From a virus (lineage: Duplodnaviria > Heunggongvirae > Uroviricota > Caudoviricetes): a stretch of 42,353 nt of DNA. Of this stretch, positions 1 through 25,494 are shown one piece after another. Position 1 is the first letter of the stretch; each line of letters opens with the position of its first letter. The notes beneath the pieces are model-generated. The model made no database searches, was not told where the DNA came from, and saw nothing but the letters and a program-made list of their open reading frames with translations. The translations under genes and the position numbers were made by a program. The stretch lies in IMG/VR virus record IMGVR_UViG_2654587736_000008. One strand, written 5' to 3'.

Positions 1-2
1 CA

Positions 3-48
3 CTGTTTATCCATACAGTTAAAAATAATACTGTATACAAACACAGTA
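3..48 (+). promoter_or_regulatory. Two tandem LexA (SOS) boxes upstream of the dinI-like gene
   Basis: CTGT-N8-ACAG at 3-18 (CTGTttatccatACAG) and a near-consensus TACTGTatacaaacACAGTA at 29-48, immediately upstream of the ATG at 62. Confidence 0.65.
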
Positions 49-61
49 TAGAGGGACTTTT

Positions 62-310
62 ATGCGTATTGAAATCTGTATAGCCAAAGAAAAAATGACT
101 AAAATGCCAACCGGTGCTGTGGATGCGTTAAAGGAAGAATTAACCCGACGCATCAGTAAACGTTATGACGATGTAGAGGTGATCGTAAAAGCCACCAGCA
201 ACGATGGCCTTTCTGTTACGCGCACCGCCGATAAAGATTCAGCTAAAACTTTTGTTCAGGAAACTCTGAAAGATACCTGGGAGTCTGCTGACGAGTGGTT
301 TGTTCACTAA
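62..310 (+). CDS. dinI: DinI-like DNA-damage-inducible protein (prophage-encoded homologue)
   Basis: 82-aa ORF; N-terminal MRIEI.IAK and C-terminal [15 protein letters not shown] match the DinI family pattern; SD GAGGGA upstream; SOS boxes upstream. Confidence 0.8.
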
Positions 311-378
311 TTAGCACGTAAAATCAGTAACGGCTGGAAATCATTCAATACTCGCACTATCGAAAGTTAACCAGCCAG

Positions 379-416
379 CCGCAGTATCCTATCATGACAA
401 GTTACTGCGGCTTTTT
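379..416 (+). terminator. Intrinsic terminator candidate downstream of dinI-like gene
   Basis: Stem CCGCAGTA(379-386)/TACTGCGG(403-410) followed by CTTTTT. Confidence 0.45.
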
Positions 417-483
417 ACTTTTTATATTTAACGGATCAACATCCAGATCAGCAGACACGCCACCACCGGCACAGCAAAATCCA

Positions 484-714
484 TCAGGCTTGCCACATCC
501 CACGCGCGCGGATCAAAACCGCCCCACCACGCATATTCATTCGCTTGCCATGCCCGAACATTTCAATCCAGCGATATTCTGCCTGGGTGTGTTCACGCGC
601 AATGAAGAACGTACAACCGGCTATCGCTCCGTAAGCCCAGTTTCCGGTAAAAAGACCAACCAGTATCTGCGCAGCCACAGCACAAAGTGCATGAAGTAAG
701 GGGCTTATATCCAT
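484..714 (-). CDS. Small membrane protein, hypothetical (76 aa)
   Basis: ORF with strong SD (AAAGGAGG) 6 nt upstream of ATG at 714; hydrophobic segment LLHALCAVAAQILVGLFTGNWAYGAIAGCTFFIA; last gene of the tail-fibre operon. Confidence 0.5.
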   Translation of the reverse strand: MDISPLLHALCAVAAQILVGLFTGNWAYGAIAGCTFFIAREHTQAEYRWIEMFGHGKRMNMRGGAVLIRARGMWQA

Positions 715-726
715 TATTTCCTCCTT

Positions 727-1005
727 TCAGCTCCATTCCCGAAGCGGTGTTTCCAGCTCCACGACATAATCAGAGAATACAGAAACATCAAACAAGTCAT
801 CAAGAATGCGAATGTTGACAAAATAACCGTCATTCCGGACACAGACAGGTTCTCCCTCTTCTGTTACCCCTGTTTCTGTGTAGGTGAAACCAATTTCATC
901 GACTAACAGTTTATTCTGGAGGTCTTCATCCTCCTCCCAGTCAAGAGATGACAGGAAGGCCTTAAACTGCAGTTTGTCATGAAACTTCAAAGTTAAATCT
1001 TTCAT
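727..1005 (-). CDS. Hypothetical acidic protein, possible tail-fibre assembly/chaperone partner (92 aa)
   Basis: ATG overlaps the stop of the tail-fibre ORF (ATGA); acidic composition; no recognisable Tfa motif. Confidence 0.45.
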   Translation of the reverse strand: MKDLTLKFHDKLQFKAFLSSLDWEEDEDLQNKLLVDEIGFTYTETGVTEEGEPVCVRNDGYFVNIRILDDLFDVSVFSDYVVELETPLREWS

Positions 1006-2330
1006 ACGACCTCTTTTAATTGCCTGTCATTTAATTCTTTATGCCATATGCGGAAATTGCGAATATGGCCAAACAGATGTCGTTCTCCAGTATTCGTCTG
1101 CCCTCCAAATCGGATATTTTTATCAGCGGTCACACCATTATATTCACAATAAACTTCATTAACCGCTTTACCATTTGTCACCACATGAAAGTGACCATCA
1201 GCTTTTGCAATACATCCAAATGTGGTTTTCTCTGCAAATACATCTGTCGCTGCGCTATTAACATACAAGCCTGAAGGGTTTGACAGACTCATATATAACT
1301 TACCACTACCTCTGTTGATTGCTGCAATTGCTGATTGCCCGGTATTGGCTGCTGCTATATCCCACACGCGGGGTGCGGCGTTTGGTGCAATATCCCAGTT
1401 TTTATGAATCTCAAGTAAAAAAGTAAATGGTAACTTATAAAGATTATTTCTGGTGGGGATACTAACCAAATCACTGGCTCTTGTCGTTGCGCTGCCTCCT
1501 GAAATAATAAATGATGATACACACGGCCCATTCTCTACTTGTGGGGTGGCAAGATAAATATAGTCACCAGATACTGTTGCCCCACCCTGCTCAGGAGAAT
1601 ACTGTATCTGAGAGCCTATTTTTAACTCACCATCAATTGCCTGAATCGTTGCCTCTGCAAAAATCCAGCCCGTGGTCTTATCCTTCCTGACTCGTGCCGT
1701 AATTCTGCCGGCAGCACCACCTGTCATATTAATTTCAAGCGTTTGCGTATCAATGTACGCATCGCCAAGAAAAGTTGTTGCACTACCATCATACTTATCA
1801 AACCGTATACGTAACCTTACCTGTCGTTCTGTTTTAAAACGGCATGAGGTTGTCACGTACTTGTTATCGCCTGAGACATCAACTGACTTTGTTGCAGCAA
1901 TTGATGCCATATTAATAGCCGAAGTTTGCCCAACCAGAGAATCGTTGCAGACAAACTTTCCATAAGTAAAACCAAAACTATCCGTCCCGGTTTCGGGCAC
2001 ATCCATGTTTGATGACTTCCCCCAGCTGGCTGGACTTTCCGAATTGAGCATGTAGTTCGTTCTTTGTCCCTCAATAAGCAGGCCATCACACTCAAATCGC
2101 GGCTCATTAATTTCCGCCGTTTTCAGTTCGCCAGATTTGTTGATATATGTTGCCGTTGATGCGCGACTGAAATTAACCTGTTTATCACTGGCGACCTGAA
2201 CCACATCGTCACCAATAGCTATTTTTTTATAGCCCGGAGAAAAACCCGCAATCATATCCAGTGAATCGTTAAACGGTATCCACACATCAGGCAGCGGCGG
2301 CACTATATTCGCATAGGGCTCTGCAGTCAC
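1002..2330 (-). CDS. Side tail fibre protein, C-terminal receptor-binding portion (frame separated from N-terminal part by a -1 frameshift)
   Basis: 442-aa ORF; the same frame is open upstream to about 2502 and encodes an Ala/Thr/Lys-rich continuation of the Stf-like shaft. Confidence 0.7.
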   Translation of the reverse strand: MTAEPYANIVPPLPDVWIPFNDSLDMIAGFSPGYKKIAIGDDVVQVASDKQVNFSRASTATYINKSGELKTAEINEPRFECDGLLIEGQRTNYMLNSESPASWGKSSNMDVPETGTDSFGFTYGKFVCNDSLVGQTSAINMASIAATKSVDVSGDNKYVTTSCRFKTERQVRLRIRFDKYDGSATTFLGDAYIDTQTLEINMTGGAAGRITARVRKDKTTGWIFAEATIQAIDGELKIGSQIQYSPEQGGATVSGDYIYLATPQVENGPCVSSFIISGGSATTRASDLVSIPTRNNLYKLPFTFLLEIHKNWDIAPNAAPRVWDIAAANTGQSAIAAINRGSGKLYMSLSNPSGLYVNSAATDVFAEKTTFGCIAKADGHFHVVTNGKAVNEVYCEYNGVTADKNIRFGGQTNTGERHLFGHIRNFRIWHKELNDRQLKEVV

Positions 2331-3061
2331 TTCCGCTGCGGCTTCTGCGCGGTCTGCCGCCTTTTCAGCTCGTGTCGCTGCCGACAGAGCCTCATCCTTT
2401 TTCTGCCCGGCCTTTGTTGCGTCTGCTGCAGCCTCCCGCGCTTTTGTGGTGGCGACTCCGGCATTTTCAGCGGCTGACTCTGCATTACGGCGGGAAGCTC
2501 TTCACTGTCTGCGGAGGCTTCTTCTGACGCACGGGCATTTGTCTCTGAACGTTCTGCCGCTGTTGCTGCGTTTTGTGCGGCTGTTTTTGAAGAAGCTGCC
2601 GCTTTCGCGCTGTTACCTGCATTCGTCTCTGATGTTTTCGCCGCGTTCCTGGACGATGCCGCTGCTGTTTCTGATTTCTTTGCTGCCGCTGCGCTCTGAG
2701 AGGCGGCTTCAGCGTTGCGTGCCACATCCTCCACCATTACCTCAAAACGACGCAATGCCTCCGGCATGACATCCTCTTCCGTCATGGCACCCAGAAAATC
2801 ATTCAGCGTCCCCGGCTTAGAATCCTCATACACGGTGATGGTCCCGGCATGTGAAGGCGGAAAACCTTCAACCAGCAGGATAACGCTGTACTGGCCATAC
2901 TCGACATCCATGCTGTAACGTCCGGCTTCATCCGGATTTTCTGAGGCCACCGTGTTCACCACCACCGTGCTGCTGGTCCGTCTGGCCTTCAGCACAATGG
3001 TGCAGTTCTGTACTGGTTTTCCTGTGCCATCTTTAAGCACGCCAGAAATTTTTACTGTCAT
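2327..3061 (-). CDS. stf: Side tail fibre protein, N-terminal portion (lambda Stf-like); reading frame breaks near 2495-2505
   Basis: N-terminus MTVKISGVLKDGTGKPVQNCTIVLKARR...GRYSMDVEYGQYSV closely resembles lambda Stf; the last ~60 residues of this ORF are basic low-complexity, consistent with out-of-frame translation. Confidence 0.7.
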   Translation of the reverse strand: MTVKISGVLKDGTGKPVQNCTIVLKARRTSSTVVVNTVASENPDEAGRYSMDVEYGQYSVILLVEGFPPSHAGTITVYEDSKPGTLNDFLGAMTEEDVMPEALRRFEVMVEDVARNAEAASQSAAAAKKSETAAASSRNAAKTSETNAGNSAKAAASSKTAAQNAATAAERSETNARASEEASADSEELPAVMQSQPLKMPESPPQKRGRLQQTQQRPGRKRMRLCRQRHELKRRQTAQKPQRK

Positions 3062-3075
3062 ACTTTTCCACCAAT

Positions 3076-3106
3076 AAAAAAAGCCCGCAGCAGTGACGCC
3101 ACGGGC
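3076..3106 (-). terminator. Terminator-like hairpin between lom and stf
   Basis: On minus strand GCCCG...CGGGC followed by TTTTTTT; the loop is long, so only moderate confidence. Confidence 0.35.
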
Positions 3107-3212
3107 TTCAGGACAGTGTAACTTTACGTTTCCTCAAACGCAGTTCACTCCATAAGGCGGATGAACCTGCGTATCATAACAATATTTACAGAAGATAAAT
3201 CGGCGTCTGTTG

Positions 3213-3812
3213 TCAGAAACGGTATCCGATACCAACAATAAATGCATCCGTTCGCCAGTCGCCACTACCGGAACCTTCATAAGCAAGGTCAATGGTCACG
3301 GATTCGGTCGGGTTAAACTGCACGCCAGCCCCCCACGCCAGAGACGTGTTGCTGTGGCGACCGTCATCACTTCCGGTCAGCACATCGTGCGTTTTCCCCT
3401 TGTTGTCAGTTACGCGGAGATAATCCCCGGAGAAAGTCGACACACGGCTGTAAGCCACACCCGCCATCGAATACGCGCTGAACCATTCATTCACGCGTAC
3501 AGACGGCCCCGCCATCACGCTGAACCAGCGGTTACGCACGGAATCTTCATGCCAGCGGGTATCGCTGTAGTGCGTTTTTTGCTCATCCTCAGCATTGGCA
3601 TAACTGAAGGACGTAATCAGCCCCAGCGCGTCCGTAAACTCATAACGGTATTTCACGTTAATCCCGTTCAGATTATCGCTGCCGGGAGCGTTCGTACGGG
3701 CATGAAGATACCCCGCGCTCAGTGTGGACTGATGTTCAGACGCCCATGCAGGCGCACCGGATACGGACAGACAGATGGCTGCGGACAAAATGACTGCACA
3801 AACTTTACGCAT
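3213..3812 (-). CDS. lom: Lom outer-membrane protein (Ail/Lom/PagC family)
   Basis: 199 aa; signal peptide then SEHQSTLSAGYLHA...GINVKYRYEF...GIGYRF, near-identical in pattern to lambda Lom. Confidence 0.9.
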   Translation of the reverse strand: MRKVCAVILSAAICLSVSGAPAWASEHQSTLSAGYLHARTNAPGSDNLNGINVKYRYEFTDALGLITSFSYANAEDEQKTHYSDTRWHEDSVRNRWFSVMAGPSVRVNEWFSAYSMAGVAYSRVSTFSGDYLRVTDNKGKTHDVLTGSDDGRHSNTSLAWGAGVQFNPTESVTIDLAYEGSGSGDWRTDAFIVGIGYRF

Positions 3813-3833
3813 AATTACCTCTCGCTTTTCTGC

Positions 3834-3860
3834 AATAAAAAAGGCGCCATTTCTGGCGCC
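3834..3860 (-). terminator. Intrinsic terminator downstream of J
   Basis: Minus strand: 7-bp stem GGCGCCA-GAAA-TGGCGCC followed by TTTTTTATT. Confidence 0.6.
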
Positions 3861-3879
3861 CGTATATGGGTTATAAAAT

Positions 3880-6800
3880 TCAGCTGATACTGATGCCTGC
3901 GGTGGCTTTCTTCATCACCACAACCAGCAAATCGCTGATACTTGCTGTGGGATACCAGTTATTCACCAGCCATGCTGACACCGAAAACTCCAGCGTCATG
4001 TGGCCGCGACCAGCTGGCATATCAATAACACCACTGTAAATCAGCGTATTATCCAGCGCGGTACGGTTATAAATTTCAGCACCGTTTTTCCGTACTATCA
4101 GGCGGCATGACGAATAAATATCGTTATTCTCCCGCTCATGTTTAGCGCCGCTGAATGCCACCGCCGGAATAACAATCTGCCGGTCAAACGGCTGATCGTC
4201 ATAAACCCTGACGGTGATGGTCCCTGATGGCCACCGTTCCGGTGCACGGGAGTCCCGGGGGAAAGCTTTGCCCACTGTTTTAACGAGATCGCCTTCAATC
4301 TGGTTGGCGGACAATTTTCCCAGAACCCGACAGTTCTCGTTAATCGTGACGTTGTTGAGCGTCCCGGAGTTCGCATTCACGTTACCGCTGATATCGGCAT
4401 TTTTCGCCGTCAGCCGCCCGTCCGGTGTCAGGGAAAATGCCGGAGGATTACCGCCGCTGGTAATGGTCGGAGCCGTCAGGCGTTTCAGGAACACGTCGTT
4501 CATGAATATCTGATCGCCCTGACCAACAAACATCGGCTTTGTGTTGCCATTCGCAGGATTAATCATCGCAATCCGGTCAGCAGCCAGAAGCACCTGACTC
4601 TGCATACCTGCTGGCGTATTCTCAATACCGGCTCCGATACCCGCAATATAAAGGCGTCCGTCCTTCATCTGCTGCAGTTTCACGGCCCACATGCTGTTCA
4701 GGTTATTATTTGTATCAACCTGAACTTTCTGTATCTGCTGGATTGCCGCACTCTGGTCTTCCAGTTTTTTATTGACGGTCTGCGTGATTTCATTGCTGAC
4801 ATTCGTAATGGACGTCCTGATTTCAGCCAGGTCCGGCGCAAGCTGACCGTTATCAATCTGCGTCCACAACTCCTGGGCCAGATGTGTTTTCCCGATTTCT
4901 CCTTTGAAAAAATCCAGGTAACCTTCCGCATCATCGCTCGCCCGACCGACAGCCTCCACGAATGCCGATTTGCCAACGGTGTTCACACTGCGAACGTAAA
5001 AATAATAATCATGGCCCGGTTTGATATTGATACTGGCGGCTATCCAGTACAGCGCCGTACCAAGATAGCGGGCTGTGGTTTCAACCTGCCTGATATCGGT
5101 AATCCGCTTTTCCGAGAACCAGAACTCAAACTGTACCGTCGGGTCATAAACAGCAAGATGCGGCGTGGCGGTTATCTGAAAATAGCCCGGCGTCAGCTCA
5201 ATCCTCGACGGTGCTGCCGGTGCGGCAATCCGGAACGATACCGACGCCGGATCGCCCTGCTGCCCCCGGGCATTTACCGCCCGGACTGTCAGCCTGTAGT
5301 TCCCCAGCGCCAGTTGCGTGAAGCGGTATGTGGTTTCCGTCGTCCGGGCCGTGCTGACCAGTCGCTCACTGCCGTCGTCCGCTGTTACGGTCAGACGGAG
5401 CAGGAAGCTCACGCCCTTCACCACCTTCGGTGTGTCCCATCGCGCCAGCACCTGATATTCCCCGCTGTCTGCAGTGACTTCGGCGGTCAGGTGCTGCACT
5501 GCTGGCGGCGTGACACCATTCACCGTGCCGCTCTGGTCACCGTCAAAGTGCGCCCCGTTATCCACGATGGCTTCTTTCTCCGGTACATGCTGCACGGCGG
5601 TGATGGCATACGTGCCGTCATCGTTCTCACGGATACTCACGCAGCGGAACAGGCGCTGGCGCAGCGTCGGCAGCTTCAGCCCCCACACGCTGTATTCTGC
5701 AACGCCGTCAGGAACACGGCTCACTTTCACCTTCACGCCGTCGGTGACGGACTGGACCTCCACGCTGACCGGATTACCCTGACCGTCAACCAGGCTTATC
5801 AGCGTGGTACCGGAGGATGGCAGCGTGATTTCACGGTCGAGCGTCAGCGTCCGGGTCTGGCTGTTCACCGCCAGCACGCGACCACCGGTGCTGATACCGG
5901 CATAGTCATCATCGCAGATTTCAATGACATCGCCCGGTACATGGCGAAGCCCTTCAGCACCCACGCTGAAATCCACGGTCTGCGTCTCCAGCAGTTCCGT
6001 TTTAATCAGCCACAGCCCGGCGCGGTGTGCCTGCCCCCGGCTGGTACAGCCAAAGGCATCCATCTTCGTGACGTTACGACCGTAACGGGCAATGGCCTGC
6101 GTGTCCTCCACAAGCTCTGTTGCCGTTTCCCAGCCGTTATCCGGGTCAGTCCAGTTCACCTCAACGGCATTATGGCGGTCCTTCAGGGCGCTGAAACTGT
6201 AGCGGAACGGCGCGCCATCATCCGGCATCACCACATTACTGCGGTTATAGGTCCACACCTTATCTGATGGTCGGTCCTGCACGAACGTCAGCGTCTGCCC
6301 GTTCCATACCGGCATACAGCGCATCGCCGAGCAGAAATCACTGAGCACATCCCACGCCTTGCGCTGTGTGGTCAGGTAAGCGTTACAGGTGATGCGCGGC
6401 TCCGTGCCGCCAAAGCCGTCCGGCACCGACTGGTCGCAATTCTGGCCGATGACATACAGCGCCCATTTATCCACATCCGCCGCACCAAGACGTTTCCCCA
6501 TGCCGTAGCGCGGATGGGTCAGCATATCCCACAGACACCAGGCCATGTTGTTGCTGTATGCCGGTTTTAACGTTCCGTCCCAGATACCGCTGTATTGCCG
6601 CGTCTGCGGGTTATAGTTCGACGGCACCTGCAGAATGCGCCCGCGAAGATGATAATTACGGCTCACCTGCTGGCTGCCGAACTGCTCCGAGTCCACCTGC
6701 ACGCCAACCAGTGCCGTGTTCGGGTAGCACTGTTTCACATCGATGATTTCGGTGTATGACGACCAGAGCGTTTTGTTCTGCAGCTGGTCTGTGGTGCTGT

Positions 6801-7359
6801 CCGGCGTCATTCTGCGCATCCGGATATTAAACGGGCGCGGCGGCAGGTTATCCACCACCACCGAGGCCAGATACTGCGAGGTGGTTTTGCCCTTAATGGT
6901 GATGTCTTTTTCCGTCACCCAGCCACCGTTACGCTGGATCTGAACCAGCAGGCGGACTTCCGACGGATTCCTGTCCCCCTTTGAGGTGGTTTCCACCAGT
7001 GCCTGCACACCGAAGGTAAAGCGCAGACGGTCGATGTTTGCCGACGTGATGGTCCGGGTGATCGGCGTGTCATATTTCACTTCCGTACCCAGCACCGTCT
7101 CGGAACCGGAGGATTCAAACCCCTCCGGCGGAGTCTGCTCCTGCTCACCTGCCCGGAACACCACCGTGACGCCGGATATATTGGTATTCCCCTCACTGTC
7201 CAGCACCGGCGTACTGTTCAGCAGCACGCTTTTTAACCCATCCACCGGACCTTCAACCGGCCCTTCGCTGATGGCATCGATCACACTCAGCAACTGCGTG
7301 GACTTCAGGTTGTCCTTCGCTTCGCGCGGGGTATGCCCCTTACTGCTGCCTTTACCCAT
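3880..7359 (-). CDS. J: Host specificity / central tail fibre protein J
   Basis: 1159 aa; N-terminus [34 protein letters not shown] and extensive collinearity with lambda J; C-terminal ~250 aa diverge. Confidence 0.95.
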
Positions 7360-7419
7360 TCGTCATGCTCCATAAACGACAAAACCGCCCGCAGGCGGTT
7401 TCACATAAAACATTTTGCA

Positions 7420-8067
7420 TCAGCGACCAATCACCACAACCTGACCACCGTCACCTTCGTCTGCCGTGCTGATCTCCTGAGAAACCACCCGCGACCCCAC
7501 ACGCATTTCACCGTACAGAACAGGCAGAACATTGCCCTGAGCAACCATGTTATCCAGTGAGGAGAAATAGGTGTTCTGTTTGCCGTTATCTGTACTGGCT
7601 GCCGTGGGCGTCCTGGCTTTCGGTGCCAGCATCTGGGCCACACCACCCAGAATCATACTGGCCCCTGCCGCATACATGCCCGATACAGCCGCAGCACCCA
7701 GCCAGCCCACAGGGTTCCACCATGCCACCGCAATCAGCGCCGCCCCCAGCACCACCTGAAACACACCGCCACTTTTAGCTCCCGCCAGACGCGGCACGAT
7801 GTGAATCACGGCACCATTTTCCAGCGGCTCATTAAGACGGGCAGATAATTCATTTTCGCCTGCATCACGCCCGGCAATGCGCACCTGATACCAGCCCTCA
7901 TTCAGTTTCTGGCGAAACGACGGAAGCTGCGTGGCCAGCGCCCGGATGGCTTCAGCCCCCGTTTTCACACGAAGGTCGATGCGGCGGCCAAATCGTTGTA
8001 AATCCCCGTAAAGGCAGATGCGTGCCATGCCCGGTGACGCCAGAGGGAGTGTGTGCGTCGCTGCCAT
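7420..8067 (-). CDS. I: Tail assembly protein I
   Basis: 215 aa; MAATHTLPLASPGMARICLYGDLQRFGRRIDLRV, lambda gpI-like. Confidence 0.85.
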   Translation of the reverse strand: MAATHTLPLASPGMARICLYGDLQRFGRRIDLRVKTGAEAIRALATQLPSFRQKLNEGWYQVRIAGRDAGENELSARLNEPLENGAVIHIVPRLAGAKSGGVFQVVLGAALIAVAWWNPVGWLGAAAVSGMYAAGASMILGGVAQMLAPKARTPTAASTDNGKQNTYFSSLDNMVAQGNVLPVLYGEMRVGSRVVSQEISTADEGDGGQVVVIGR

Positions 8068-8708
8068 TTGTCGGTATACCTCTCTCGTTTGCTCAGTTGT
8101 TCAGGAATATGGTGCAGCAGCTCGCCGTCACCACAGTAAATGGCGGCATGATTCGGCACCGATGAACCAAAACAGCACAGCAGCACATCGCCCGGCTGCG
8201 CCGCTGACAACGGCACCTGATACAGCCCTGTGGCCTCCAGATTATCCAGATAGAGATTCTGACCGTGACGCCACCAGTCATCCCCGCGATGAAAATCCGG
8301 CATCTCAATCCCCGCCAGATGATAAGCATCCCGGAACAGCGTGTAACAGTCCGTCACCCCGTGCTCAAAGCGCCGCCCGGTAAGATGCGGCACACAGCGG
8401 AATTTATGAATCTCACCCCGGCAGACCAGCCACCACGGCAAATCACTCTGCACCTGCAGCCGCCGGTCGGCCTCACTCAGCCAGGGCAGACCACCGGGGT
8501 GGCTGTGGACCAGCGCCACAATCTCACCCTGCATCTCTGCCCGCAGCCAGTCCTCCGGCGACATCCGGAAATACGCCTCCGGCTCACCGGAGATATTCAC
8601 GCAGGGAAAATATCTTTCCCCCTCCGGCGTTCTCACCACGAAGCCGCACGACTCCGCTGGCGCACATCGCCGGGCGTGCGCCAGAATCGCTGATTCTGTC
8701 TGTGTCAT
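7965..8708 (-). CDS. K: Tail assembly protein K (MPN/JAMM plus NlpC/P60 domains)
   Basis: Start taken at the ATG giving MTQTESAILAHARR; HSHPGG metal-binding motif; the ORF-track upstream extension is rejected. Confidence 0.85.
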   Translation of the reverse strand: MTQTESAILAHARRCAPAESCGFVVRTPEGERYFPCVNISGEPEAYFRMSPEDWLRAEMQGEIVALVHSHPGGLPWLSEADRRLQVQSDLPWWLVCRGEIHKFRCVPHLTGRRFEHGVTDCYTLFRDAYHLAGIEMPDFHRGDDWWRHGQNLYLDNLEATGLYQVPLSAAQPGDVLLCCFGSSVPNHAAIYCGDGELLHHIPEQLSKRERYTDKWQRRTHSLWRHRAWHASAFTGIYNDLAAASTFV

Positions 8709-8712
8709 GGGA

Positions 8713-9411
8713 TTACTGCGAAAGTTTGTTAATGGAAAGGAAGCCGCCAAAGTTGCCGACGTTATTGCGAAACTTACAACCACTCAGGCATTTGCTGCAT
8801 TTATCCTTCGTGATATCGGACGTCGGCTGGTCATATTCATCAGCGACAGCCGGACCGTGATAACCGCACTCATCACCGCGATAGGTCCAGGTGCAGGTAT
8901 TAGCCAGCATGATGCGCCCCGGAAAAACAGCACCGTCCGTTTCCGTCGGCGTGGACAGTACAAAAGAGGCACTGACCGCGCTCAGTTCGCTGCACTGCTC
9001 GATGCGCCAGCGGCTGATCACCTCCTGCTCCGGATCGGCGTCACTGTTTCCGTTGACGAAGTTCACCGCATCCAGAAAACGGGCGTAAACCTTACGCCTG
9101 ACCACCGTTCCGCCGACCAGACTCTGCAGGTCTTCCGCCATCCCGGTGACCATTCCGTGCAGGTTAGAAACCGTCAGTGTCGGACGGGCAGCACTGCCCT
9201 TGCCGTTCAGTTCAAATCCCGTCCCCTGAATAGGGTATGCCTGATACTGCCGCCCCTGCCAGGTAACCGGCTCACCTTTTTCGTTCTGCTCATTACAGAA
9301 AAAATAACGTTCACCACCGACCTCTGTCAGATCGATTTCCCAGAGCACCACCTGGGCTGACTGAGTGAGGCGTGTCGTCTCATGATGTGTTTCCTGTGGA
9401 ATATCCTGCAT
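8713..9411 (-). CDS. L: Minor tail protein L
   Basis: 232 aa, lambda gpL-like; C-terminal Cys cluster CSKCLSGCKFRNNV. Confidence 0.85.
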   Translation of the reverse strand: MQDIPQETHHETTRLTQSAQVVLWEIDLTEVGGERYFFCNEQNEKGEPVTWQGRQYQAYPIQGTGFELNGKGSAARPTLTVSNLHGMVTGMAEDLQSLVGGTVVRRKVYARFLDAVNFVNGNSDADPEQEVISRWRIEQCSELSAVSASFVLSTPTETDGAVFPGRIMLANTCTWTYRGDECGYHGPAVADEYDQPTSDITKDKCSKCLSGCKFRNNVGNFGGFLSINKLSQ

Positions 9412-9420
9412 CAGAGCCTC

Positions 9421-9750
9421 CTATGCCACGACCTGTTCAAAATCTGCCGTTATGGTTACCCACAACGCCCCCACGCTTGCCGACCATTTACGACAAACCA
9501 CCCTGATCGGCTTCCAGTCATAAGGTGGCGTCCACTGAAATGCGCGGACGCCACCGTGCCGTTCCAGAAAGGCTTTTAAAGATGGGTGTTCACATTTACG
9601 AACACGTATCGTCACGCTGTAAGTCGACAACTGGTTATTCAGTCCCGCCGCACGACGCTGTTCATAACCATCGCCCAGCTTCACTGTCACCACTTTCGGC
9701 TCTGATACCACATTCATATCCGGGCGCACTTTCCAGTGAAACGTCTCCAT
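9421..9750 (-). CDS. M: Minor tail protein M
   Basis: 109 aa, lambda gpM-like (METFHWKVRPDM...). Confidence 0.85.
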   Translation of the reverse strand: METFHWKVRPDMNVVSEPKVVTVKLGDGYEQRRAAGLNNQLSTYSVTIRVRKCEHPSLKAFLERHGGVRAFQWTPPYDWKPIRVVCRKWSASVGALWVTITADFEQVVA

Positions 9751-12700
9751 TACCGATATGCTCCACTTAACCGACCACCATCACGGGCCTGCTGTTGCAT
9801 AAAGTCCGCTGCCGCTTTTTTCCCAAGGTCATAAACCACCTTCAGGGCAGCAGGACCTATCTGCCCGTTCGTGCCATCGTTATTGATCTCGATGTTGTAC
9901 TGCGGGGCAAACATCGCCATACCTGAACCACCAATATCCGCCACAACCCCCAGCTTACCGTCAGCACCACGACGCAGTGGCAGAATGGCTTCAGGTCCAG
10001 CTTCCCCCATCACACCCGCGCCTTTTGCAAAAGCAAAAAACGTCGGACGGTTAACCACCGTGCCACTGTAGCGACTCAAATCAGCCGACTGATAAACACC
10101 GCCATCAGCATTGGCTACAAAATCAAAAGGCAGCGCGGAAGCAATGCCTTTTACCGCTTTCATTAAAGCTATCTGAGCCATGATTCTGGACATATCTGAC
10201 AGCACAGAAGAAGTAAAAGATTTGAAATTGAGTTTGCCTGTAGTACAGAATGTCGCCAGCCAATCACTCATGCTACTGAACGCAGACGTGAACAACTGTT
10301 CCACTGTCCCGGCTGTGTTATCCGCATTCTCAGTGACATTCTGGAGTGCACGCAGGACTCCGTTTTTCCAGTTACCCTGAGCAATTTCAAGCTGTTGCCA
10401 GTAACGGCGATTCTCATTCAGTTGTCGGTTCAGACTCTCCGTCAGCGCCTGCTCGGCCTTTCTGTAGTCATCCGTGTTATATGTCCCTTTCTGCTCACTA
10501 TCCCGCCTCAACTGCTCCAGCTGTTGCTGGTATTTCTGGCGAAGACTCAGTTGTACCTGATATCGCTGCCGCTGCTGATCACCCATACCAACCGTGGCGA
10601 TATCCAGGTCATGTTGCTGACGCTGAGCGCGCTCTTCTTCAGCCAGTTGACTGGTCAGCTGAATTGTTTTTTTCTTCAGATCGTTGAGTGCCGTCTGTTT
10701 CTGAAGCTCCTGCTGTTTTACATCCAGCAGCGTCAGTGCCTGAATCAGTTCATCTTTACGGGCCAGCACACTCTTTTCATCTGCCGTCAGTTTTTTCCCG
10801 TCCAGATCGCTGATGCGCTGCTGCAGAGCCAGAAGCTGTTTATGCGCTTCTGTCATCTTTTCAGTGGCAATGCCTGCTGACTGTCTTGCAGCAGCAATCT
10901 GTCCTTCCACCTGTGCCTGTTGCTGACTGTACTGCAGCAATAACCGGGTGGCCTCATCATTACGGGTTTCGCGTGTTTTTTTCTTACCGGATGCCAGGGC
11001 TTTCTCGTAACGTTCATTTTCACGTTGTATCGCCGCATCCCTGACAGCCTGATCGGCGTACTGCATGGCATTAATACGCGCAATTTCACGCTGATGTCGT
11101 GCAGCTTCCGTTTCATTCATCCGGTTCAGTGCAGCATTTTCAGCATTACGGCGTTTCTGTTGCTCCTGATAATTCCGCTCTGCCTGCTCTTTTGCATCCT
11201 GCAAATCCTTCTGGCGTTTTTTCTCCTGAAGATCGTTAAGACGCTGCTGATCGTATTCAACCTGAGAAGATGATGCCGTCCAGGGGAGTCTTTTCGCCCG
11301 CGACACTTTCTCCTGCAAAGTGGCAATCTGCGCATCCAGCGAATCTTCACGACCAATATTCATGGCCGCATCCCAGAACTGCTTCCACCAGTCAGATAAA
11401 GTTTGCAGCGTACTGCCCAGCGCATTGAGGTTATTATCAATATCCGCAGTACGCCGACCGGTTTCCTCTGCCAGTGCAGACATGGCTATCCGTGCCGCAT
11501 CACTGGACCGCCCCTGCTCTCCAAGGACGCGTATCTGCTCAAGCTGAGTGGCAATAAGAAAATGCAGCTCATTGTCCAGAGACTTCGCGGCATTTACAGG
11601 ATCATCCTTCAGCCGCTTAAACTGATTTATGGTATCGCTGACCGACTGGCCAACCGATCGCTCCATCTGTGCGGCAGCTCTCGCCACCATACCGATATCG
11701 TTTCCACGAAATGCACCACTCCCCACCACCTGAGCCAGCGCACCGGCTGCAGCATGTTGCGTGATACCATTCCCGGAAATAGCACGACTGAGCGTCCACA
11801 GCTGCCCGGCAGTGACTCCGGCATAATGCCCCGTCAGCGACAGCTGGCGGTTAAATTCTTCCCCCTCCTTCTGACCGTCATACCAGGCTTTACCCAGGCC
11901 ATAGACAGCCGCGGCAATACCGCCAATAACCCCGCCAAGCATCATGCCTTTCGGTGACATCAATGTGTCTATCCACCCAGCACGGTTAGCCAGCGTTATT
12001 CCGGATCCCCTCAGCGCACCTAAATTTCCGCGGGCCAGTTCACCTATCAGAACGCCTATCTCCTGACGGGCCGCTGCACTTTTCAGCCCCAGCGAATGCG
12101 TGGCTTTTCCTGCCTGCTCCATTTTGCGGATATACACTTCTGCAGCACTGCTTACCCCCAGCTGGGCAGCCTTAGCACGAAGCAACTCAGAAGAAGAAAG
12201 ATTCTGGCGGGTTGCCTGCTCTTTAAGCTGACGGATAAACGCCACTTTCTGTCGGGTAGCCTCTTCCTCAGCCTGTGTAAGAACACGGGTTTTCGCCGTA
12301 ACCTCAGAAATCAGCGCCAGATAATCCTGCTGACCAATCCCGCCACTGTTTCTGGCCTGTCGGATCTGCTGCTGAATACGCTGTAATTCCTGCAGACCCG
12401 CACTGGCCTGTTTCACACTGTCAATCTGACGATAAAACGCAGCAGCAGCTTTATCCTGAGCCTCCGCCAGAGCCATGGCCTGCGCCTGTTCCTCGCGCAT
12501 TTTCTGGCTCAGCGCCTCCATACGCTGGCGGGTTTTCTCCACCTCGCGGGCCATGCGTTCATGAGCCTGTGCGTTCTTCTCCACCGTCTGCGCATGAACG
12601 GATGCGGCTGTTGCAGCCGAAGACGCCGCCTGCGTTGTCTGCCGGGCGGCCTGAGTCTGACGCTCCATAAAACGCTGCATACGGGCAGAAGACCGTTCTG

Positions 12701-12806
12701 CATCGCTGGCTGCACCATTCAGAAGGTTTTTGATACGGGGGATTTCATTTTTAAACTCTGCCGCATCAATCCCCAAATCAATGACCAGGTTGGCTATCTG
12801 GTCCAT
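9750..12806 (-). CDS. H: Tail length tape measure protein H
   Basis: Start placed at ATG 12806 (MDQIANLVIDLGIDAAEF) with SD GGAGG; about 1018 aa, coiled-coil rich; C-terminus NNDGTNGQIGPAALK as in lambda gpH. Confidence 0.85.
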   Translation of the reverse strand: MDQIANLVIDLGIDAAEFKNEIPRIKNLLNGAASDAERSSARMQRFMERQTQAARQTTQAASSAATAASVHAQTVEKNAQAHERMAREVEKTRQRMEALSQKMREEQAQAMALAEAQDKAAAAFYRQIDSVKQASAGLQELQRIQQQIRQARNSGGIGQQDYLALISEVTAKTRVLTQAEEEATRQKVAFIRQLKEQATRQNLSSSELLRAKAAQLGVSSAAEVYIRKMEQAGKATHSLGLKSAAARQEIGVLIGELARGNLGALRGSGITLANRAGWIDTLMSPKGMMLGGVIGGIAAAVYGLGKAWYDGQKEGEEFNRQLSLTGHYAGVTAGQLWTLSRAISGNGITQHAAAGALAQVVGSGAFRGNDIGMVARAAAQMERSVGQSVSDTINQFKRLKDDPVNAAKSLDNELHFLIATQLEQIRVLGEQGRSSDAARIAMSALAEETGRRTADIDNNLNALGSTLQTLSDWWKQFWDAAMNIGREDSLDAQIATLQEKVSRAKRLPWTASSSQVEYDQQRLNDLQEKKRQKDLQDAKEQAERNYQEQQKRRNAENAALNRMNETEAARHQREIARINAMQYADQAVRDAAIQRENERYEKALASGKKKTRETRNDEATRLLLQYSQQQAQVEGQIAAARQSAGIATEKMTEAHKQLLALQQRISDLDGKKLTADEKSVLARKDELIQALTLLDVKQQELQKQTALNDLKKKTIQLTSQLAEEERAQRQQHDLDIATVGMGDQQRQRYQVQLSLRQKYQQQLEQLRRDSEQKGTYNTDDYRKAEQALTESLNRQLNENRRYWQQLEIAQGNWKNGVLRALQNVTENADNTAGTVEQLFTSAFSSMSDWLATFCTTGKLNFKSFTSSVLSDMSRIMAQIALMKAVKGIASALPFDFVANADGGVYQSADLSRYSGTVVNRPTFFAFAKGAGVMGEAGPEAILPLRRGADGKLGVVADIGGSGMAMFAPQYNIEINNDGTNGQIGPAALKVVYDLGKKAAADFMQQQARDGGRLSGAYR

Positions 12807-13119
12807 AACGCACACCTCCGGAAATACCTTCCCCAAGATGCATCAGTTCTTCGTCCGTTCGCTCCGGTATCCCGTTCTCTTCCGGTAAAAGGCTGAAATC
12901 AGCCACCGCAGCATCACTGCTGCCGGACACCATTCTCACGATCAATGCCTTCAGCGAGGCAAACTGCGCATCCATCCACACATCACTGAAGCTCTGCATC
13001 CGGAAATAATCGCCCCACTCACCAAGCTCAGTGGCCGACATTTCCGACAGCATCCGCCGCCAGTCTGCCCGCCGGAACTCCCGGGCAAGCCGCATGACAA
13101 ACTGCATTTCCCGCGTCAT
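12778..13119 (-). CDS. T: Tail assembly chaperone T segment (expected to be made as G-T fusion by -1 frameshift)
   Basis: ORF in the -1 frame relative to G, overlapping the G stop; a GGAAAAG motif lies just upstream of the G stop. Confidence 0.7.
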   Translation of the reverse strand: MTREMQFVMRLAREFRRADWRRMLSEMSATELGEWGDYFRMQSFSDVWMDAQFASLKALIVRMVSGSSDAAVADFSLLPEENGIPERTDEELMHLGEGISGGVRYGPDSQPGH

Positions 13120-13502
13120 GACTTTTCCGGCGTCAGCGCCTCATGCTCATCATCCCCGGCATTATCAATGGCCCCCATACCGCTCAGCGACAGAACCATC
13201 TCCGCCCCCGCACCCAGGGCATCATACGACCATGTTGTAATAACGGATGCGCAAAGCGTCTCTACATCCTTAGACTGATCCGCATTCCACAGTGAGCGGG
13301 AAACCAGCCAGGCATTGATATCCATCCCCATCCGCAGAAAAGCAATCTGTCGTTCAGCCTCCGGCAGTTCTCCCTCACCGGCATCAAACTTTGCCGTTCG
13401 CTGCTGAACAAACGCCAGATATTCAATTCTCTGCAGCCCGGACAGCTCACTGAGCACCACGGACTGTTTTTCATAATTAAACGTGCCCTGTTTCAGAAAC
13501 AT
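13116..13502 (-). CDS. G: Tail assembly chaperone G
   Basis: Start at the second ATG of the ATGATG pair (MFLKQGTF...), SD GGTGGAG; resembles lambda gpG. Confidence 0.8.
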   Translation of the reverse strand: MFLKQGTFNYEKQSVVLSELSGLQRIEYLAFVQQRTAKFDAGEGELPEAERQIAFLRMGMDINAWLVSRSLWNADQSKDVETLCASVITTWSYDALGAGAEMVLSLSGMGAIDNAGDDEHEALTPEKS

Positions 13503-13562
13503 CATGTTCTCCACCTGCAAAAAAGCCCCGGATAACCGGGGCAAATGATAAGTATCGTCCTG

Positions 13563-14306
13563 TTAACCTGCGGCGCTGACAGTCACCGCAGCCACAGCCA
13601 CAAAATTCCCGTCAGCGGTCATGCCCACAATGCTGACACTGCCCTGCTTCACGCCTTTCACCGTGGCTACAAGCCCGTTCAGGGTCACCGTGGCAGTCTG
13701 TGGATCTGACGAATGCACACTGATCGCTTTGTCACTGGCTCCGTCAGGTTTTACTGTAAAGGTCAGCGTGGTGGTTGCTCCCACTTTTACACTGGCAGAT
13801 GCCGGTGCCACCGTCAGCCCGGTAACGCTCACTGTTTCAGTGCCTTCCTCTGCCAGATACGGACGCCCCACACCGCTGATTTTCACAGTGCGGGTCATCA
13901 CGTCTTTTGAGGCAATGGTTTTACCCAGTGAACTCAGCCAGCCACGGAAAACATCAACAGTACCGTTGGGATATTTGATACGAAACGCGCAGACTTCACC
14001 GGAGTCGAACAACTGAACCAGTTTTTTCTGCCCGCTGTCACCCGGACGCCAGGCCAGCGTCGCCGAAGTATCACCGACTGATTTCTGCCCCTGGGTTGTC
14101 GTTTTCCAGTCTGCATCTTCATCATCGAGATAAGTATCATCTTCTGCATCAGCGGTCATTTCGCCAGGTTGCAGATCCTTCACCATCGCAAGACGCAGCC
14201 AGTCAGTGTCCGACAAAGGGTTCGCAAATGCGTCGCCGTTGCCGGTATACATCCAGAACGTCGTCCCCGCACCTTTCGTCTTTGCCAGTGGATTTGGTGT
14301 GGTCAT
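13563..14306 (-). CDS. V: Major tail protein V (with C-terminal Ig-like domain)
   Basis: Start at ATG 14306 (MTTPNPLAKTKGAGTT...) with SD AAGGAGG; lambda gpV-like throughout. Confidence 0.9.
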   Translation of the reverse strand: MTTPNPLAKTKGAGTTFWMYTGNGDAFANPLSDTDWLRLAMVKDLQPGEMTADAEDDTYLDDEDADWKTTTQGQKSVGDTSATLAWRPGDSGQKKLVQLFDSGEVCAFRIKYPNGTVDVFRGWLSSLGKTIASKDVMTRTVKISGVGRPYLAEEGTETVSVTGLTVAPASASVKVGATTTLTFTVKPDGASDKAISVHSSDPQTATVTLNGLVATVKGVKQGSVSIVGMTADGNFVAVAAVTVSAAG

Positions 14307-14316
14307 TGCCACCTCC

Positions 14317-14718
14317 TTAATTCGTGTACGTGATCTGGTACGTGATTTCCGCCATCGCCCAGGTGGCCATCTCATTATCACGTTGATAGTTAAAACCGAG
14401 TGGGATCAGGGTGTCGATGAGTCCGGAAAGTGCCGGTACATCATTCAGGGCCGGGAAAATGGTGCTCTCCATCCACATATCCAGCTCTGAATCCGGTGCC
14501 TGTGCCCGGATGAAGACAGCAATATGCAGAACAGCCTGCCAGTCATCTTCATCCGTCATTTTTCCGGTGTACTGAGCATCACTCAGCCACACCGCCACGG
14601 CAGGCAGTTCCTGCGCATCAATAAATGCCGGAAGCCCGTCAAAAAACGTGGCGCTGTCTCCACACTGTTCCCGAAGGCGTGCCAGTACGACCTGGCGGAT
14701 TTGTGTATGTCGGTTCAT
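14317..14718 (-). CDS. U: Tail terminator protein U
   Basis: ATG at 14718 overlaps the Z stop (ATGA); ATFFDG...AVAV...DSELD motifs as in lambda gpU. Alternative start at 14730. Confidence 0.8.
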   Translation of the reverse strand: MNRHTQIRQVVLARLREQCGDSATFFDGLPAFIDAQELPAVAVWLSDAQYTGKMTDEDDWQAVLHIAVFIRAQAPDSELDMWMESTIFPALNDVPALSGLIDTLIPLGFNYQRDNEMATWAMAEITYQITYTN

Positions 14719-15305
14719 CGGGTCAGCCATAATCTCAGTTGTTGTTTCAGTGCATACCCCAGCTGTTTCGGCATTTCCGCAGCAATGATGCGGTCGCGGG
14801 CATCTTCAAATGCCTGTGTCAGCGGTCCGGACAGCGGGATTTTCACTACCTCCACAGGAAGACGATTTTTTCTTGGCCTGCCCTGATGGTCATGCCCTGT
14901 TGCAAAACGCGCTTCAGGAAGACGCCTCAGAACATGCCAGCGGCCATTCGCCAGTTGCTGAACAAATGCCCCCCGGAAAAAGTATTTTCCCACTCTCAGT
15001 CCTTCACCAGCACGCCGCCGTGTTGTGTTCAGTTTGATGGCGGGCAGATTGCCCCGGTTAACGCGGATCCTGGCCGTCATTTTTCCTGACGGACTGGCTT
15101 TAAACACCCGGACACGCTGACGTACCAGTTTCAGGGGGATCCCTTTCACCTGGTTATCTCCCGCAACGGTATTCCCGGCAACCTGCCGGGTGGCAACCGA
15201 GACCGCTTTCTGTGCCACACGGTTTATCGCCCATGCGCTGGCCTGTGGCACCATACGGGTATCAAGGCTGTTCAGATTGCGGATGGCATTCTCAAGCCCC
15301 TTCAT
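14715..15305 (-). CDS. Z: Tail completion protein Z
   Basis: 196 aa; lambda gpZ-like (GRWHV...VKIP...LGYAL). Confidence 0.8.
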   Translation of the reverse strand: MKGLENAIRNLNSLDTRMVPQASAWAINRVAQKAVSVATRQVAGNTVAGDNQVKGIPLKLVRQRVRVFKASPSGKMTARIRVNRGNLPAIKLNTTRRRAGEGLRVGKYFFRGAFVQQLANGRWHVLRRLPEARFATGHDHQGRPRKNRLPVEVVKIPLSGPLTQAFEDARDRIIAAEMPKQLGYALKQQLRLWLTR

Positions 15306-15316
15306 CCCACACCTCT

Positions 15317-15592
15317 TTACTCAATAAAGATCATTGGCTTACCGTTAAAGCGTTCATGCCGTGTGACCGTCCATTGTTGTCCGTCATAAACAACGCGATC
15401 CCCGCGCCGTGGGCGGTATCCCGAAGAAAACACCACCAGAGAGACCGCAGGTCCGGACAGAGCATTCAGCTCTGCCAGTGTTTCTCCCGGGATCACAGTC
15501 ATATCGACATCATTAATCGAGGCTGTCTTTCCCATCTTTCTGACCGTGATAGCATCCATACGCGCTGCCAGCCGGGAAAAGGGATCAGACAT
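15317..15592 (-). CDS. Head-tail joining protein, FII-like
   Basis: 91 aa in the FII position; RGD-containing C-terminal region. Assignment rests mainly on position. Confidence 0.5.
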   Translation of the reverse strand: MSDPFSRLAARMDAITVRKMGKTASINDVDMTVIPGETLAELNALSGPAVSLVVFSSGYRPRRGDRVVYDGQQWTVTRHERFNGKPMIFIE

Positions 15593-24856: not shown

Positions 24857-25207
24857 TTAAGGTTGTGATTCCGGAGGAGTCTTCAGAGAACCAGTAATTC
24901 TTCCTGGTAGCTTTCCTTTGTAGGTTATCCACACATTCTGCGCCTCTAAAATTACGGGGCGCTTTTCCGGCGACTGCTCATCCCCTTCACATAACCCGGC
25001 AGCAACATCCAGGAAGACCTGTCTGATGCTCCTTCTGGCTGCTGCCTCATAAAACTCCAGCGCGGCACCTTCAACACGGTCCAGCGAGATGTCCAGGTCA
25101 AAAATTTCACCGTCAAAGCGTTTTTTGTCCCGTAACGCTAAAGTTACCGTAACTTTATTCTCAAAATTGCGGATCCCTTTCACAATCACTTCATAGTTTT
25201 GAGTCAT
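24857..25207 (-). CDS. Hypothetical protein inserted between holin and endolysin (116 aa)
   Basis: SD GGGGAGAG upstream of ATG 25207, 4 nt after the holin stop; soluble, acidic; no recognisable family. Confidence 0.55.
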   Translation of the reverse strand: MTQNYEVIVKGIRNFENKVTVTLALRDKKRFDGEIFDLDISLDRVEGAALEFYEAAARRSIRQVFLDVAAGLCEGDEQSPEKRPVILEAQNVWITYKGKLPGRITGSLKTPPESQP

Positions 25208-25211
25208 TGAA

Positions 25212-25427
25212 TTACTCTCCCCGTGCAGCCTTACGCTTGTCTTCTTTAATCTTGAAATAAAGGTTTGTCAGATACGTCAGCAAGCCAAATACCAGACTAC
25301 CCAGCACACCTATTGCCGCCCACTGTGAGGGCGTGACTTTATCGAGCAACTGTAAAAACCAGTACCCGGCACTACCTGCTGAGGTGCCATAGGCGACACC
25401 CGTTGTTAACTTATCCATGGATTTCAT
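25212..25427 (-). CDS. S: Pinholin, phage 21 S-like (class II holin) with dual-start motif
   Basis: [29 protein letters not shown]...[22 protein letters not shown]; two Met codons (M1, M4) as in S21 holin/antiholin. Confidence 0.85.
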
Positions 25428-25462
25428 AACCCCACCTCGCAGATGCGGGTGCTGTGTAATGG

Positions 25463-25488: not shown

Positions 25489-25494
25489 ACCAGA

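What the first reader, a model, noticed from the sequence alone, without database searches (positions are those of the whole stretch)
1002..3061. Side tail fibre gene split by a single-base frameshift
The Stf-like N-terminus (frame A, 2327-3061) and the Ala-rich shaft plus receptor-binding domain (frame B, open from about 2502 to 1002) are offset by one base. Restoring one G in GAAGAGCTTCC near 2495-2505 would join them into a protein of roughly 680 aa. Lambda PaPa carries a comparable stf frameshift, so this may be an inactivated fibre, or a sequencing error.
Basis: seen in the sequence. Interest (0 to 1): 0.45.

Follow-up and report, generated by a model that had tools for sequence, protein, structure and literature searches.

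The report
Frameshifted side tail fibre gene, probably artefact
A prophage side tail fibre gene in E. coli RS218 is split in this record by one missing G; this is most likely an error of the Ion Torrent assembly, or otherwise a very recent ordinary knockout like the one in laboratory lambda.

Summary
On the minus strand, ORF 2327-3061 and the frame open from 2501 down to 1002 are two halves of one gene. The window has GAAGAGCTTCC where relatives have GAAGAGGCTTCC, so one G of a GG pair is missing at window 2498. Putting it back gives a 686-aa protein. That protein is identical over residues 32-686 to an intact E. coli homologue and 97.5% identical to the curated side tail fibre of phage 21.

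The fibre has three parts:
- a lambda-Stf collar domain at the N-terminus;
- an Ala-rich coiled-coil shaft;
- a distal domain resembling the RcGTA head-spike fibre, followed by a weak LamG-like region.

The deleted form occurs nowhere else I could search. It is absent from all 1,092 complete E. coli genomes carrying this stretch, and from the GTDB, IMG/VR and JGI collections.

The window comes from CP007149.1, the genome of strain RS218. That genome was sequenced by Ion Torrent alone, with gaps closed by primer walking. A second private GG-to-G deletion, at window 531, breaks the gene two positions downstream. The same 2.5 kb carries no private substitution.

My reading is an assembly artefact (about 0.7), otherwise a very recent real inactivation (about 0.28). 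Programmed frameshifting is rejected. Interest is low.

The parts
1002..3061 (-). Whole side tail fibre gene (stf, phage-21 type), 2060 nt here against 2061 nt in intact homologues. It reads as a pseudogene in this record.
   Evidence: The repaired product is 686 aa, 97.5% identical to the phage 21 side tail fibre and 100% identical to E. coli PG20180057 (L001) over residues 32-686.
2498..2498 (-). Site of the frame break. A single G stands where relatives have GG (GAAGAG[G]CTTCC). This corresponds to CP007149.1 position 4568856.
   Evidence: Alignment. Fourteen fetched loci carrying this stretch have the extra base. None of 1,092 complete E. coli genomes has the deleted form. The deleted form also gave 0 hits in GTDB representatives, IMG/VR and JGI metagenomes.
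2327..3061 (-). ORF1, 244 aa. It holds the collar/anchor domain (PF08400, aa 1-131), the start of the Ala-rich shaft up to residue 188, then 56 out-of-frame codons ending in TGA.
1002..2501 (-). The frame-B part: the rest of the Ala-rich shaft plus the distal domains. The first possible start codon is GTG at 2330, which overlaps ORF1's TGA as GTGA.
1476..2078 (-). Domain resembling the RcGTA head-spike fibre (NF048003, aa 329-529 of the repaired protein). This is the putative polysaccharide-binding part.
   Evidence: NCBIfam score 57.1 bits against a cut-off of 36. PDB 6tb9 (Rcc01080) matches at E 1.3e-9 over residues 297-543. The RcGTA head spike fibre binds capsular polysaccharide (PMC10218006).
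1020..1385 (-). C-terminal region that is weakly concanavalin-A/LamG-like.
   Evidence: Pfam PF13385 scores 25 bits, below the 27.6 cut-off.
727..1005 (-). Downstream 92-aa gene of unknown function (phrog_1361). Its ATG overlaps the stf stop as ATGA. It is a constant partner of this fibre type.
   Evidence: It follows the fibre gene in all 10 loci examined.
428..714 (-). Small membrane-protein gene (phrog_1443, 95-97 aa in relatives). It is broken by a second private one-base deletion at window 531 (GG to G on the + strand), which corresponds to CP007149.1 position 4570823.
   Evidence: None of 1,693 genomes has the deleted form. The repaired 95-aa product is an exact match on 292 contigs.
3080..3109 (-). 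Terminator-like hairpin between lom and stf, just upstream of the stf ribosome-binding site.
   Evidence: Phage 21 has an annotated terminator upstream of its stf.

Best explanation
The locus is the side tail fibre gene (stf) of a lambdoid prophage integrated next to dusA in E. coli RS218 (CP007149.1). The intact gene encodes a 686-aa trimeric fibre with four parts.
- Residues 1-94 form the lambda-Stf collar domain, which in Ur-lambda rings the gpV/gpM junction of the tail tip.
- Residues about 113-255 form an Ala-rich coiled-coil shaft.
- Residues about 297-543 resemble the capsule-binding head-spike fibre of RcGTA.
- A weakly LamG-like region follows at the C-terminus.

By analogy with Ur-lambda, such a fibre speeds reversible adsorption and is dispensable for plaque formation. 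In this record one G of a GG pair is missing at window 2498, so translation leaves the frame after residue 188. The most likely cause is an error in the Ion Torrent and primer-walking assembly, not a mutation in the strain.

Shown: the gene identity, the exact lesion, and its uniqueness. Inferred: the fibre's receptor class and the artefact origin. The confidence given is for the artefact reading; the gene identity and the one-base lesion are near certain.
For: Gene identity and lesion.

Evidence for an artefact:
1. Window 1-15359 is 100% identical to CP007149.1. That genome was sequenced by Ion Torrent PGM alone, with gaps closed by primer walking (PMC4513156).
2. The deleted form is absent from all 1,092 complete E. 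coli genomes that carry this stretch. It is also absent from GTDB representatives, IMG/VR and JGI metagenomes.
3. A second private GG-to-G deletion, 2 kb away at window 531, breaks the gene two positions downstream of stf. None of 1,693 genomes has it.
4. Within window 437-2960 there is no private substitution against four comparators. The two deletions are the only private differences. From my own knowledge, base substitutions outnumber indels roughly 10:1 in E. coli mutation-accumulation lines, whereas Ion Torrent errors are mainly indels.
5. After the one-base repair the protein is identical to an intact homologue over 655 residues, so no further decay has accumulated.
6. The same dusA prophage in strains 1290 and PG20180057 has an intact stf.
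7. The record is missing from the RefSeq complete-genome set searched. Its reported 4,658 CDS is lower than the average of 4,982 for related NMEC genomes. Both fit an excess of frameshifted genes, but this is weak evidence.
Against: Neither deletion lies in a long homopolymer. All 52 runs of 6 or more bases in the window show no private length difference, apart from one run in a divergent intergenic patch. Window 36500-42353 is 100% identical to three independent genomes. The assembly is therefore generally accurate here, and the classic long-homopolymer Ion Torrent error is not what is seen.

Broken fibre genes do occur naturally. Lambda PaPa is one example. Three of the 40 best full-length hits have lengths incompatible with an open frame, and one of 10 gene-called loci is split.

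No reads and no second RS218 assembly could be reached with these tools.
Confidence: 0.7

Rival explanations
1. Genuine, very recent pseudogenisation. The RS218 lineage really lost one G, so the prophage would make virions with a collar stub but no side fibres, as lambda PaPa does. Such virions would still infect through the central fibre J, with slower adsorption or a narrower host range.
For: The lesion is unambiguous in the deposited sequence. Side fibres are dispensable in lambda, and laboratory lambda carries just such a frameshift (PMC12617516). The same gene appears truncated near residue 643 beside transposase genes in phages 4A7, 1W, 3W and Lambda_4C10, and it is frameshifted in strain PAR. 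The surrounding assembly looks accurate.
Against: The 2.5 kb holds two private single-base deletions and no private substitution. The form was not seen in any other genome. The downstream frame shows no secondary decay. The genome was sequenced on an indel-prone platform.
Confidence: 0.28
2. A natural two-gene arrangement or a programmed ribosomal frameshift, in which the two ORFs are meant to be separate or are joined during translation.
For: RefSeq lists two features under intact homologues. ORF1's TGA overlaps a GTG start for ORF2 as GTGA at 2330-2327, which could in principle allow re-initiation.
Against: The two RefSeq features are in the same frame and overlap, and the ORF beneath them is contiguous. 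This is an annotation artefact. Phage 21, PG20180057 at dusA and 9 of 10 other loci have a single 686/687-aa gene. No X XXY YYZ slippery heptamer or long homopolymer lies near 2498, and frame B is open for only two codons before the lesion. A re-initiated 442-aa fragment would lack the collar domain and could not attach to the tail.
Confidence: 0.02

Closest known systems
Side tail fibre of Escherichia phage 21 (OL657228.1, CPT_21_22, UMO75437.1), and the same gene in mEp460, ev017, Perceval, PhiR63_2 and PhiR57_1
   Same: Same gene. It is 686 aa, 97.2-97.7% identical over the full length in one frame. It sits in the same position after J and is followed by the same 92-aa and roughly 97-aa genes.
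   Different: The window copy lacks one G at 2498. It has 8 substitutions in the first 31 residues, from a lom-linked stf lineage (mosaic 5' end). It also has lom between J and stf.
Lambda Stf and the lambda PaPa stf frameshift (Hendrix & Duda 1992; Ur-lambda structures 9e7m/9mgh)
   Same: The N-terminal collar domain is homologous (residues 1-94, E 6e-50). It is followed by an Ala-rich coiled-coil shaft. Here too a frameshift splits the gene into two ORFs, and the fibre is dispensable.
   Different: The distal half is unrelated. There is no gp37-like OmpC-binding tip and no Tfa chaperone gene (PF02413) downstream. The lambda PaPa mutation is experimentally established, whereas this one is unverified and probably an artefact.
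RcGTA head spike fibre Rcc01080 (PDB 6tb9; NCBIfam NF048003)
   Same: Residues about 297-543 are homologous by sequence (E 1.3e-9; 57.1 bits against a cut-off of 36). The RcGTA protein binds capsular polysaccharide, which suggests a glycan receptor for this fibre too.
   Different: Here the domain is carried on a tail-attached lambda-type fibre, not on a capsid spike. Binding specificity was not tested.

Membership tests
Lambda-type side tail fibre (Stf; Pfam PF08400 prophage tail fibre N-terminal) | N-terminal collar/anchor domain homologous to lambda Stf residues 1-94 | tested here: met
   PF08400 scores 233.7 bits against a cut-off of 26.6. PDB 9e7m matches at E 6.2e-50 over residues 1-94.
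Lambda-type side tail fibre (Stf; Pfam PF08400 prophage tail fibre N-terminal) | Gene located just downstream of J (and lom) in the late tail operon | tested here: met
   The order on the minus strand is J at 3880-7359, lom at 3213-3812 and stf at 1002-3061.
Lambda-type side tail fibre (Stf; Pfam PF08400 prophage tail fibre N-terminal) | gp37-like distal tip with a Tfa (PF02413) assembly chaperone gene downstream | tested here: not met
   No Caudo_TAP or Collar/Phage_fiber hits were found. The downstream 92-aa gene has no Pfam family. Lambda-type loci L006-L015 do carry PF02413. The window gene therefore shares the anchor and shaft but not the lambda tip.
Phage-21-type fibre (phrog_1419 tail protein) | Full-length match to the family profile in a single reading frame | tested here: not met
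   Both halves match the profile, at positions 1-188 and 351-793, but in two frames. The one-base repair restores a single frame.
GTA head-spike-fibre domain (NCBIfam NF048003) | Score above the curated cut-off | tested here: met
   57.1 bits against a cut-off of 36. 6tb9 matches at E 1.3e-9.
Concanavalin A-like / Laminin_G_3 (PF13385) | Score above the Pfam gathering threshold | tested here: inconclusive
   25.0 bits against a cut-off of 27.6. No structure was predicted.
Programmed -1 ribosomal frameshift | Slippery heptamer at the frame junction, and conservation of the two-frame layout in homologues | tested here: not met
   The junction reads GAA GAG CTT CCC with no slippery motif. Homologues are contiguous.
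Genuine pseudogene (mutation present in the organism) | The lesion is confirmed by independent reads or a second assembly of the same strain | not testable with these tools
   The Illumina draft JWZW01 exists but could not be reached. Exact-product look-ups found nothing.

The most novel reading that the evidence does not exclude
Both private deletions are real. RS218 would then carry a lineage-specific double knockout of the side-fibre module (stf plus the small membrane protein gene two positions downstream). That would be a natural counterpart of lambda PaPa in a clinical K1 strain. The collar-only stub and a possibly re-initiated free 442-aa glycan-binding fragment might have some effect on virion adsorption.
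Probability: 0.2. Interest if true: 0.15.

Novelty: already known. Interest (0 to 1): 0.08.

Why it matters
It matters little biologically. Frameshifted side tail fibre genes are familiar from lambda PaPa and from many decaying prophages, and this fibre type is already curated in phage 21.

The practical value is in curation.
- CP007149.1, the widely used RS218 reference, probably carries uncorrected single-base deletions at 4568856 and 4570823. These turn two prophage genes into apparent pseudogenes.
- RefSeq's PGAP splits intact copies of this fibre into two overlapping same-frame features. That could mislead anyone who judges whether the gene is intact from annotation alone.

Tried and rejected
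- **Programmed frameshift or a natural two-gene layout.** Rejected: there is no slippery site, and homologues are contiguous.
- **RefSeq's two-feature annotation of homologues as support for two genes.** Rejected: the two features are in the same frame and overlap, over an uninterrupted 686/687-aa ORF.
- **Independent sightings of the deleted allele.** A 29-mer scan of GTDB representative genomes, IMG/VR and JGI metagenomes gave 0 hits each. A 69-mer megablast gave 0 of 1,092 complete E. coli genomes.
- **Exact look-ups of the products.** The two frameshifted products and the repaired 686-aa protein are not in the 15-billion-protein collection.
- **Reaching the Illumina RS218 draft through exact look-ups of neighbouring genes.** J returned only CP007149.1. 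Lom and the 92-aa protein are too widespread to isolate RS218.
- **The indels at 22529 and 22575 as further errors.** Rejected: the same sequence is 100% identical in at least 8 other complete genomes (23 records at 99% or more) and lies in a non-coding stretch.
- **A classic long-homopolymer Ion Torrent miscall.** Not supported: both deletions are in 2-base runs, and the long runs agree with relatives.
- **Not done.** I did not predict a structure, because it would not bear on the frameshift question.

Full report
**1. The observation**

The region reads on the minus strand. ORF1 (2327-3061, 244 aa) starts MTVKISGVLKDGTGKPVQNCT... and is recognisable fibre sequence up to ...ARASEEASADSEE. It then becomes 56 residues of basic out-of-frame sequence. 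The other frame is open from 2501, just after a TGA at 2504-2502, down to the stop at 1002. It reads RASRRNAESAAENAG... and continues into a 442-aa ORF.

An alignment with two E. coli homologues shows one difference in 322 columns. The window has GAAGA-GCTTCC and the homologues have GAAGAGGCTTCC.

The intact homologue is a single 686-aa ORF. Inserting the base gives 686 aa with no stop. The repaired protein is identical to the PG20180057 protein over residues 32-686 and 669/686 identical to the phage 21 protein.

Both halves match one phage family, phrog_1419. ORF1 covers profile positions 1-188 (E 1e-105) and ORF2 covers 351-793 (E 9e-212). The split is real in the sequence and is not a chance pair of ORFs.

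**2. What the gene is**

The order on the minus strand is J (3880-7359), lom (3213-3812), a terminator-like hairpin (3109-3080), then stf, a 92-aa gene and a small membrane-protein gene.

- **N-terminus.** It is the prophage tail fibre N-terminal domain (PF08400, 233.7 bits). Residues 1-94 match the Ur-lambda fibre chain in PDB 9e7m (E 6e-50). In Ur-lambda, twelve copies of this domain form a collar around the gpV/gpM junction, and trimeric coiled-coil shafts extend from it (PMC12617516).
- **Shaft.** Residues about 113-255 are Ala-rich. The lesion lies inside this part.
- **Distal domain.** Residues about 297-543 match NCBIfam NF048003 (57.1 bits against a cut-off of 36). They also match the RcGTA head spike fibre Rcc01080 (PDB 6tb9, E 1.3e-9). 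That protein binds capsular polysaccharide (PMC10218006).
- **C-terminus.** The last 120 or so residues are weakly LamG-like, below the Pfam threshold.
- **What is absent.** There is no gp37-like tip and no Tfa chaperone gene. The window gene therefore shares lambda's anchor and shaft but not its receptor-binding end. A surface-glycan receptor is my inference.

The gene is the phage-21-type side tail fibre. Phage 21 carries it as one curated 2061-nt CDS. Phages 21, mEp460, ev017, Perceval, PhiR63_2 and PhiR57_1 each align over all 686 residues in one tblastn piece at 97.2-97.7% identity. In 9 of 10 independently gene-called loci it is a single 686/687-aa gene.

**3. An annotation trap**

RefSeq lists two features under intact homologues: a pseudo 'prophage tail fiber N-terminal domain' and a 574-aa 'phage head spike fiber domain-containing protein'. 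These features overlap, lie in the same frame and sit on an uninterrupted ORF.

**4. Where the window comes from**

An exact look-up of the J protein found one record, CP007149.1. Window 1-15359 is 100% identical to it. CP007149.1 is the E. coli RS218 chromosome. It was sequenced with Ion Torrent PGM alone, assembled de novo and by reference, and its gaps were closed by primer walking (PMC4513156). The prophage lies next to dusA and an integrase gene.

**5. Real mutation or artefact**

Evidence pointing to an artefact:
- **Uniqueness.** The deleted form is unique. None of 1,092 complete E. coli genomes carrying the 69-base stretch has it, and there are 0 hits in GTDB representatives, IMG/VR and JGI metagenomes.
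- **Fetched homologues.** All 14 fetched loci that carry this stretch have the extra base.
- **Sister prophages.** The same dusA prophage in strains 1290 and PG20180057 has an intact stf.
- **A second deletion.** A second private one-base deletion, also GG to G, lies 2 kb away at window 531. It truncates the small membrane-protein gene to 76 aa, against 95-97 aa in relatives. None of 1,693 genomes has it. The repaired 95-aa product is an exact match on 292 contigs.
- **No private substitutions.** In window 437-2960 there is no substitution that differs from all four comparators, so the two deletions are the only private differences. From my own knowledge, substitutions outnumber indels about ten to one in real E. 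coli evolution, whereas Ion Torrent errors are mostly indels.
- **No secondary decay.** The frame downstream of the lesion shows no further damage.

Evidence pointing the other way:
- Neither deletion is in a long homopolymer.
- None of the 52 runs of 6 or more bases shows a private length change, apart from one run in a divergent intergenic patch.
- Window 36500-42353 is 100% identical to three other genomes.
- Window 24868-37000 has no gaps against strain 1290.

The assembly is therefore locally good, and the classic long-homopolymer miscall is not what is seen.

Both deletions fall inside the 2.5-kb segment that E. coli genomes often carry in a second copy, typically beside sitABCD. Such repeats are hard to assemble from short reads and are the places where gaps get closed by single-pass primer walking. 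I could not verify that RS218 has a second copy.

SCU-484 shows how this region attracts assembly errors. Its copy of the prophage has a run of 'frameshifted' genes from the small membrane-protein gene next to stf through to K.

Real disruption also occurs. Three of the 40 best full-length hits have lengths incompatible with an open frame.

My estimate is artefact 0.7, genuine recent mutation 0.28 and anything else 0.02.

**6. Consequence if the deletion is real**

The product would be the collar domain plus about 90 residues of shaft and a nonsense tail. No distal fibre would form. By analogy with lambda PaPa, the phage would still infect through J, with slower adsorption.

ORF1's TGA overlaps a GTG as GTGA at 2330-2327. 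Some re-initiation could therefore yield a free 442-aa distal fragment, but that fragment would have no means of attaching to the tail. This last point is inference.

**7. Programmed frameshifting**

This is rejected. There is no slippery heptamer and no long homopolymer near the lesion. Frame B opens only two codons before it. All homologues are contiguous.

**8. Verdict**

The feature is a known gene with a one-base lesion in an indel-prone assembly. It is of curation interest only.

Noticed in passing
window 428-714 (minus strand), lesion at 531: A second private single-base deletion (GG to G on the + strand) truncates the small membrane-protein gene (phrog_1443) to 76 aa, against 95-97 aa in relatives. 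None of 1,693 complete E. coli genomes has the deleted form.
   Followed up: yes
L001 3001-5061; L003 13003-15066: RefSeq/PGAP annotates intact 686/687-aa fibre ORFs as two overlapping same-frame features: a pseudo N-terminal domain plus a 574-aa protein starting at GTG codon 113. This mimics a split gene.
   Followed up: yes
window 2712-4000 compared with 437-2960: The stf gene has a mosaic 5' end. Window 2712-4000 (lom plus the start of stf) is 97.3% identical to a lineage whose lom is followed by a 991-1035-aa lambda-type Stf with Tfa (L006-L015). The rest of the gene is phage-21 type. The junction lies inside the conserved collar domain.
   Followed up: partly
L016 (E. coli SCU-484) 1637-9831: The same dusA prophage in SCU-484 has six consecutive genes flagged as frameshifted (the small membrane-protein gene, stf, lom, J, I and K). 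This looks like an unpolished repeat region rather than biology.
   Followed up: no
window 1 and L005 15360-17583: The window starts exactly one base after the stop codon of a tyrosine integrase gene that abuts dusA. The integrase therefore sits at the stf/DinI end of the prophage, and a PrtN/excisionase-like gene lies at the far end (about window 41400-41700). The attachment site then falls between the xis-like gene and int.
   Followed up: no
window 22529 and 22575: Two one-base differences from strain 1290, 46 bases apart, lie in the unannotated stretch between the small-terminase-like gene and the lysis genes. The window's version is 100% identical in at least 8 other complete genomes (23 records at 99% or more), so they are natural variants.
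   Followed up: yes
phage records LR595861.1, LR595864.1, OM475428.1, OM475430.1 (hits H129-H132): In phages Lambda_4C10, 4A7, 1W and 3W, the match to this fibre stops at residue 643, and mobile-element (transposase) genes are annotated nearby. This suggests that an IS insertion has truncated the fibre tip.
   Followed up: no
L018, L020-L025, L027; L004 (phage 21) 1-1894: The stf, 92-aa and 97-aa gene module lies directly beside the sitABCD iron/manganese transporter genes in many E. coli genomes and in phage 21 itself. In those cases the transporter travels as phage cargo.
   Followed up: no
window 2327-2330 (minus strand): The out-of-frame TGA of ORF1 overlaps the first possible start codon (GTG) of ORF2 as GTGA. 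This is a chance stop-start overlap that could allow some translational re-initiation.
   Followed up: no
window 727-1005 (minus strand): A 92-aa gene (phrog_1361, no Pfam family) overlaps the stf stop as ATGA and accompanies this fibre type in every locus examined. It may act as a fibre-specific assembly factor in place of Tfa.
   Followed up: no
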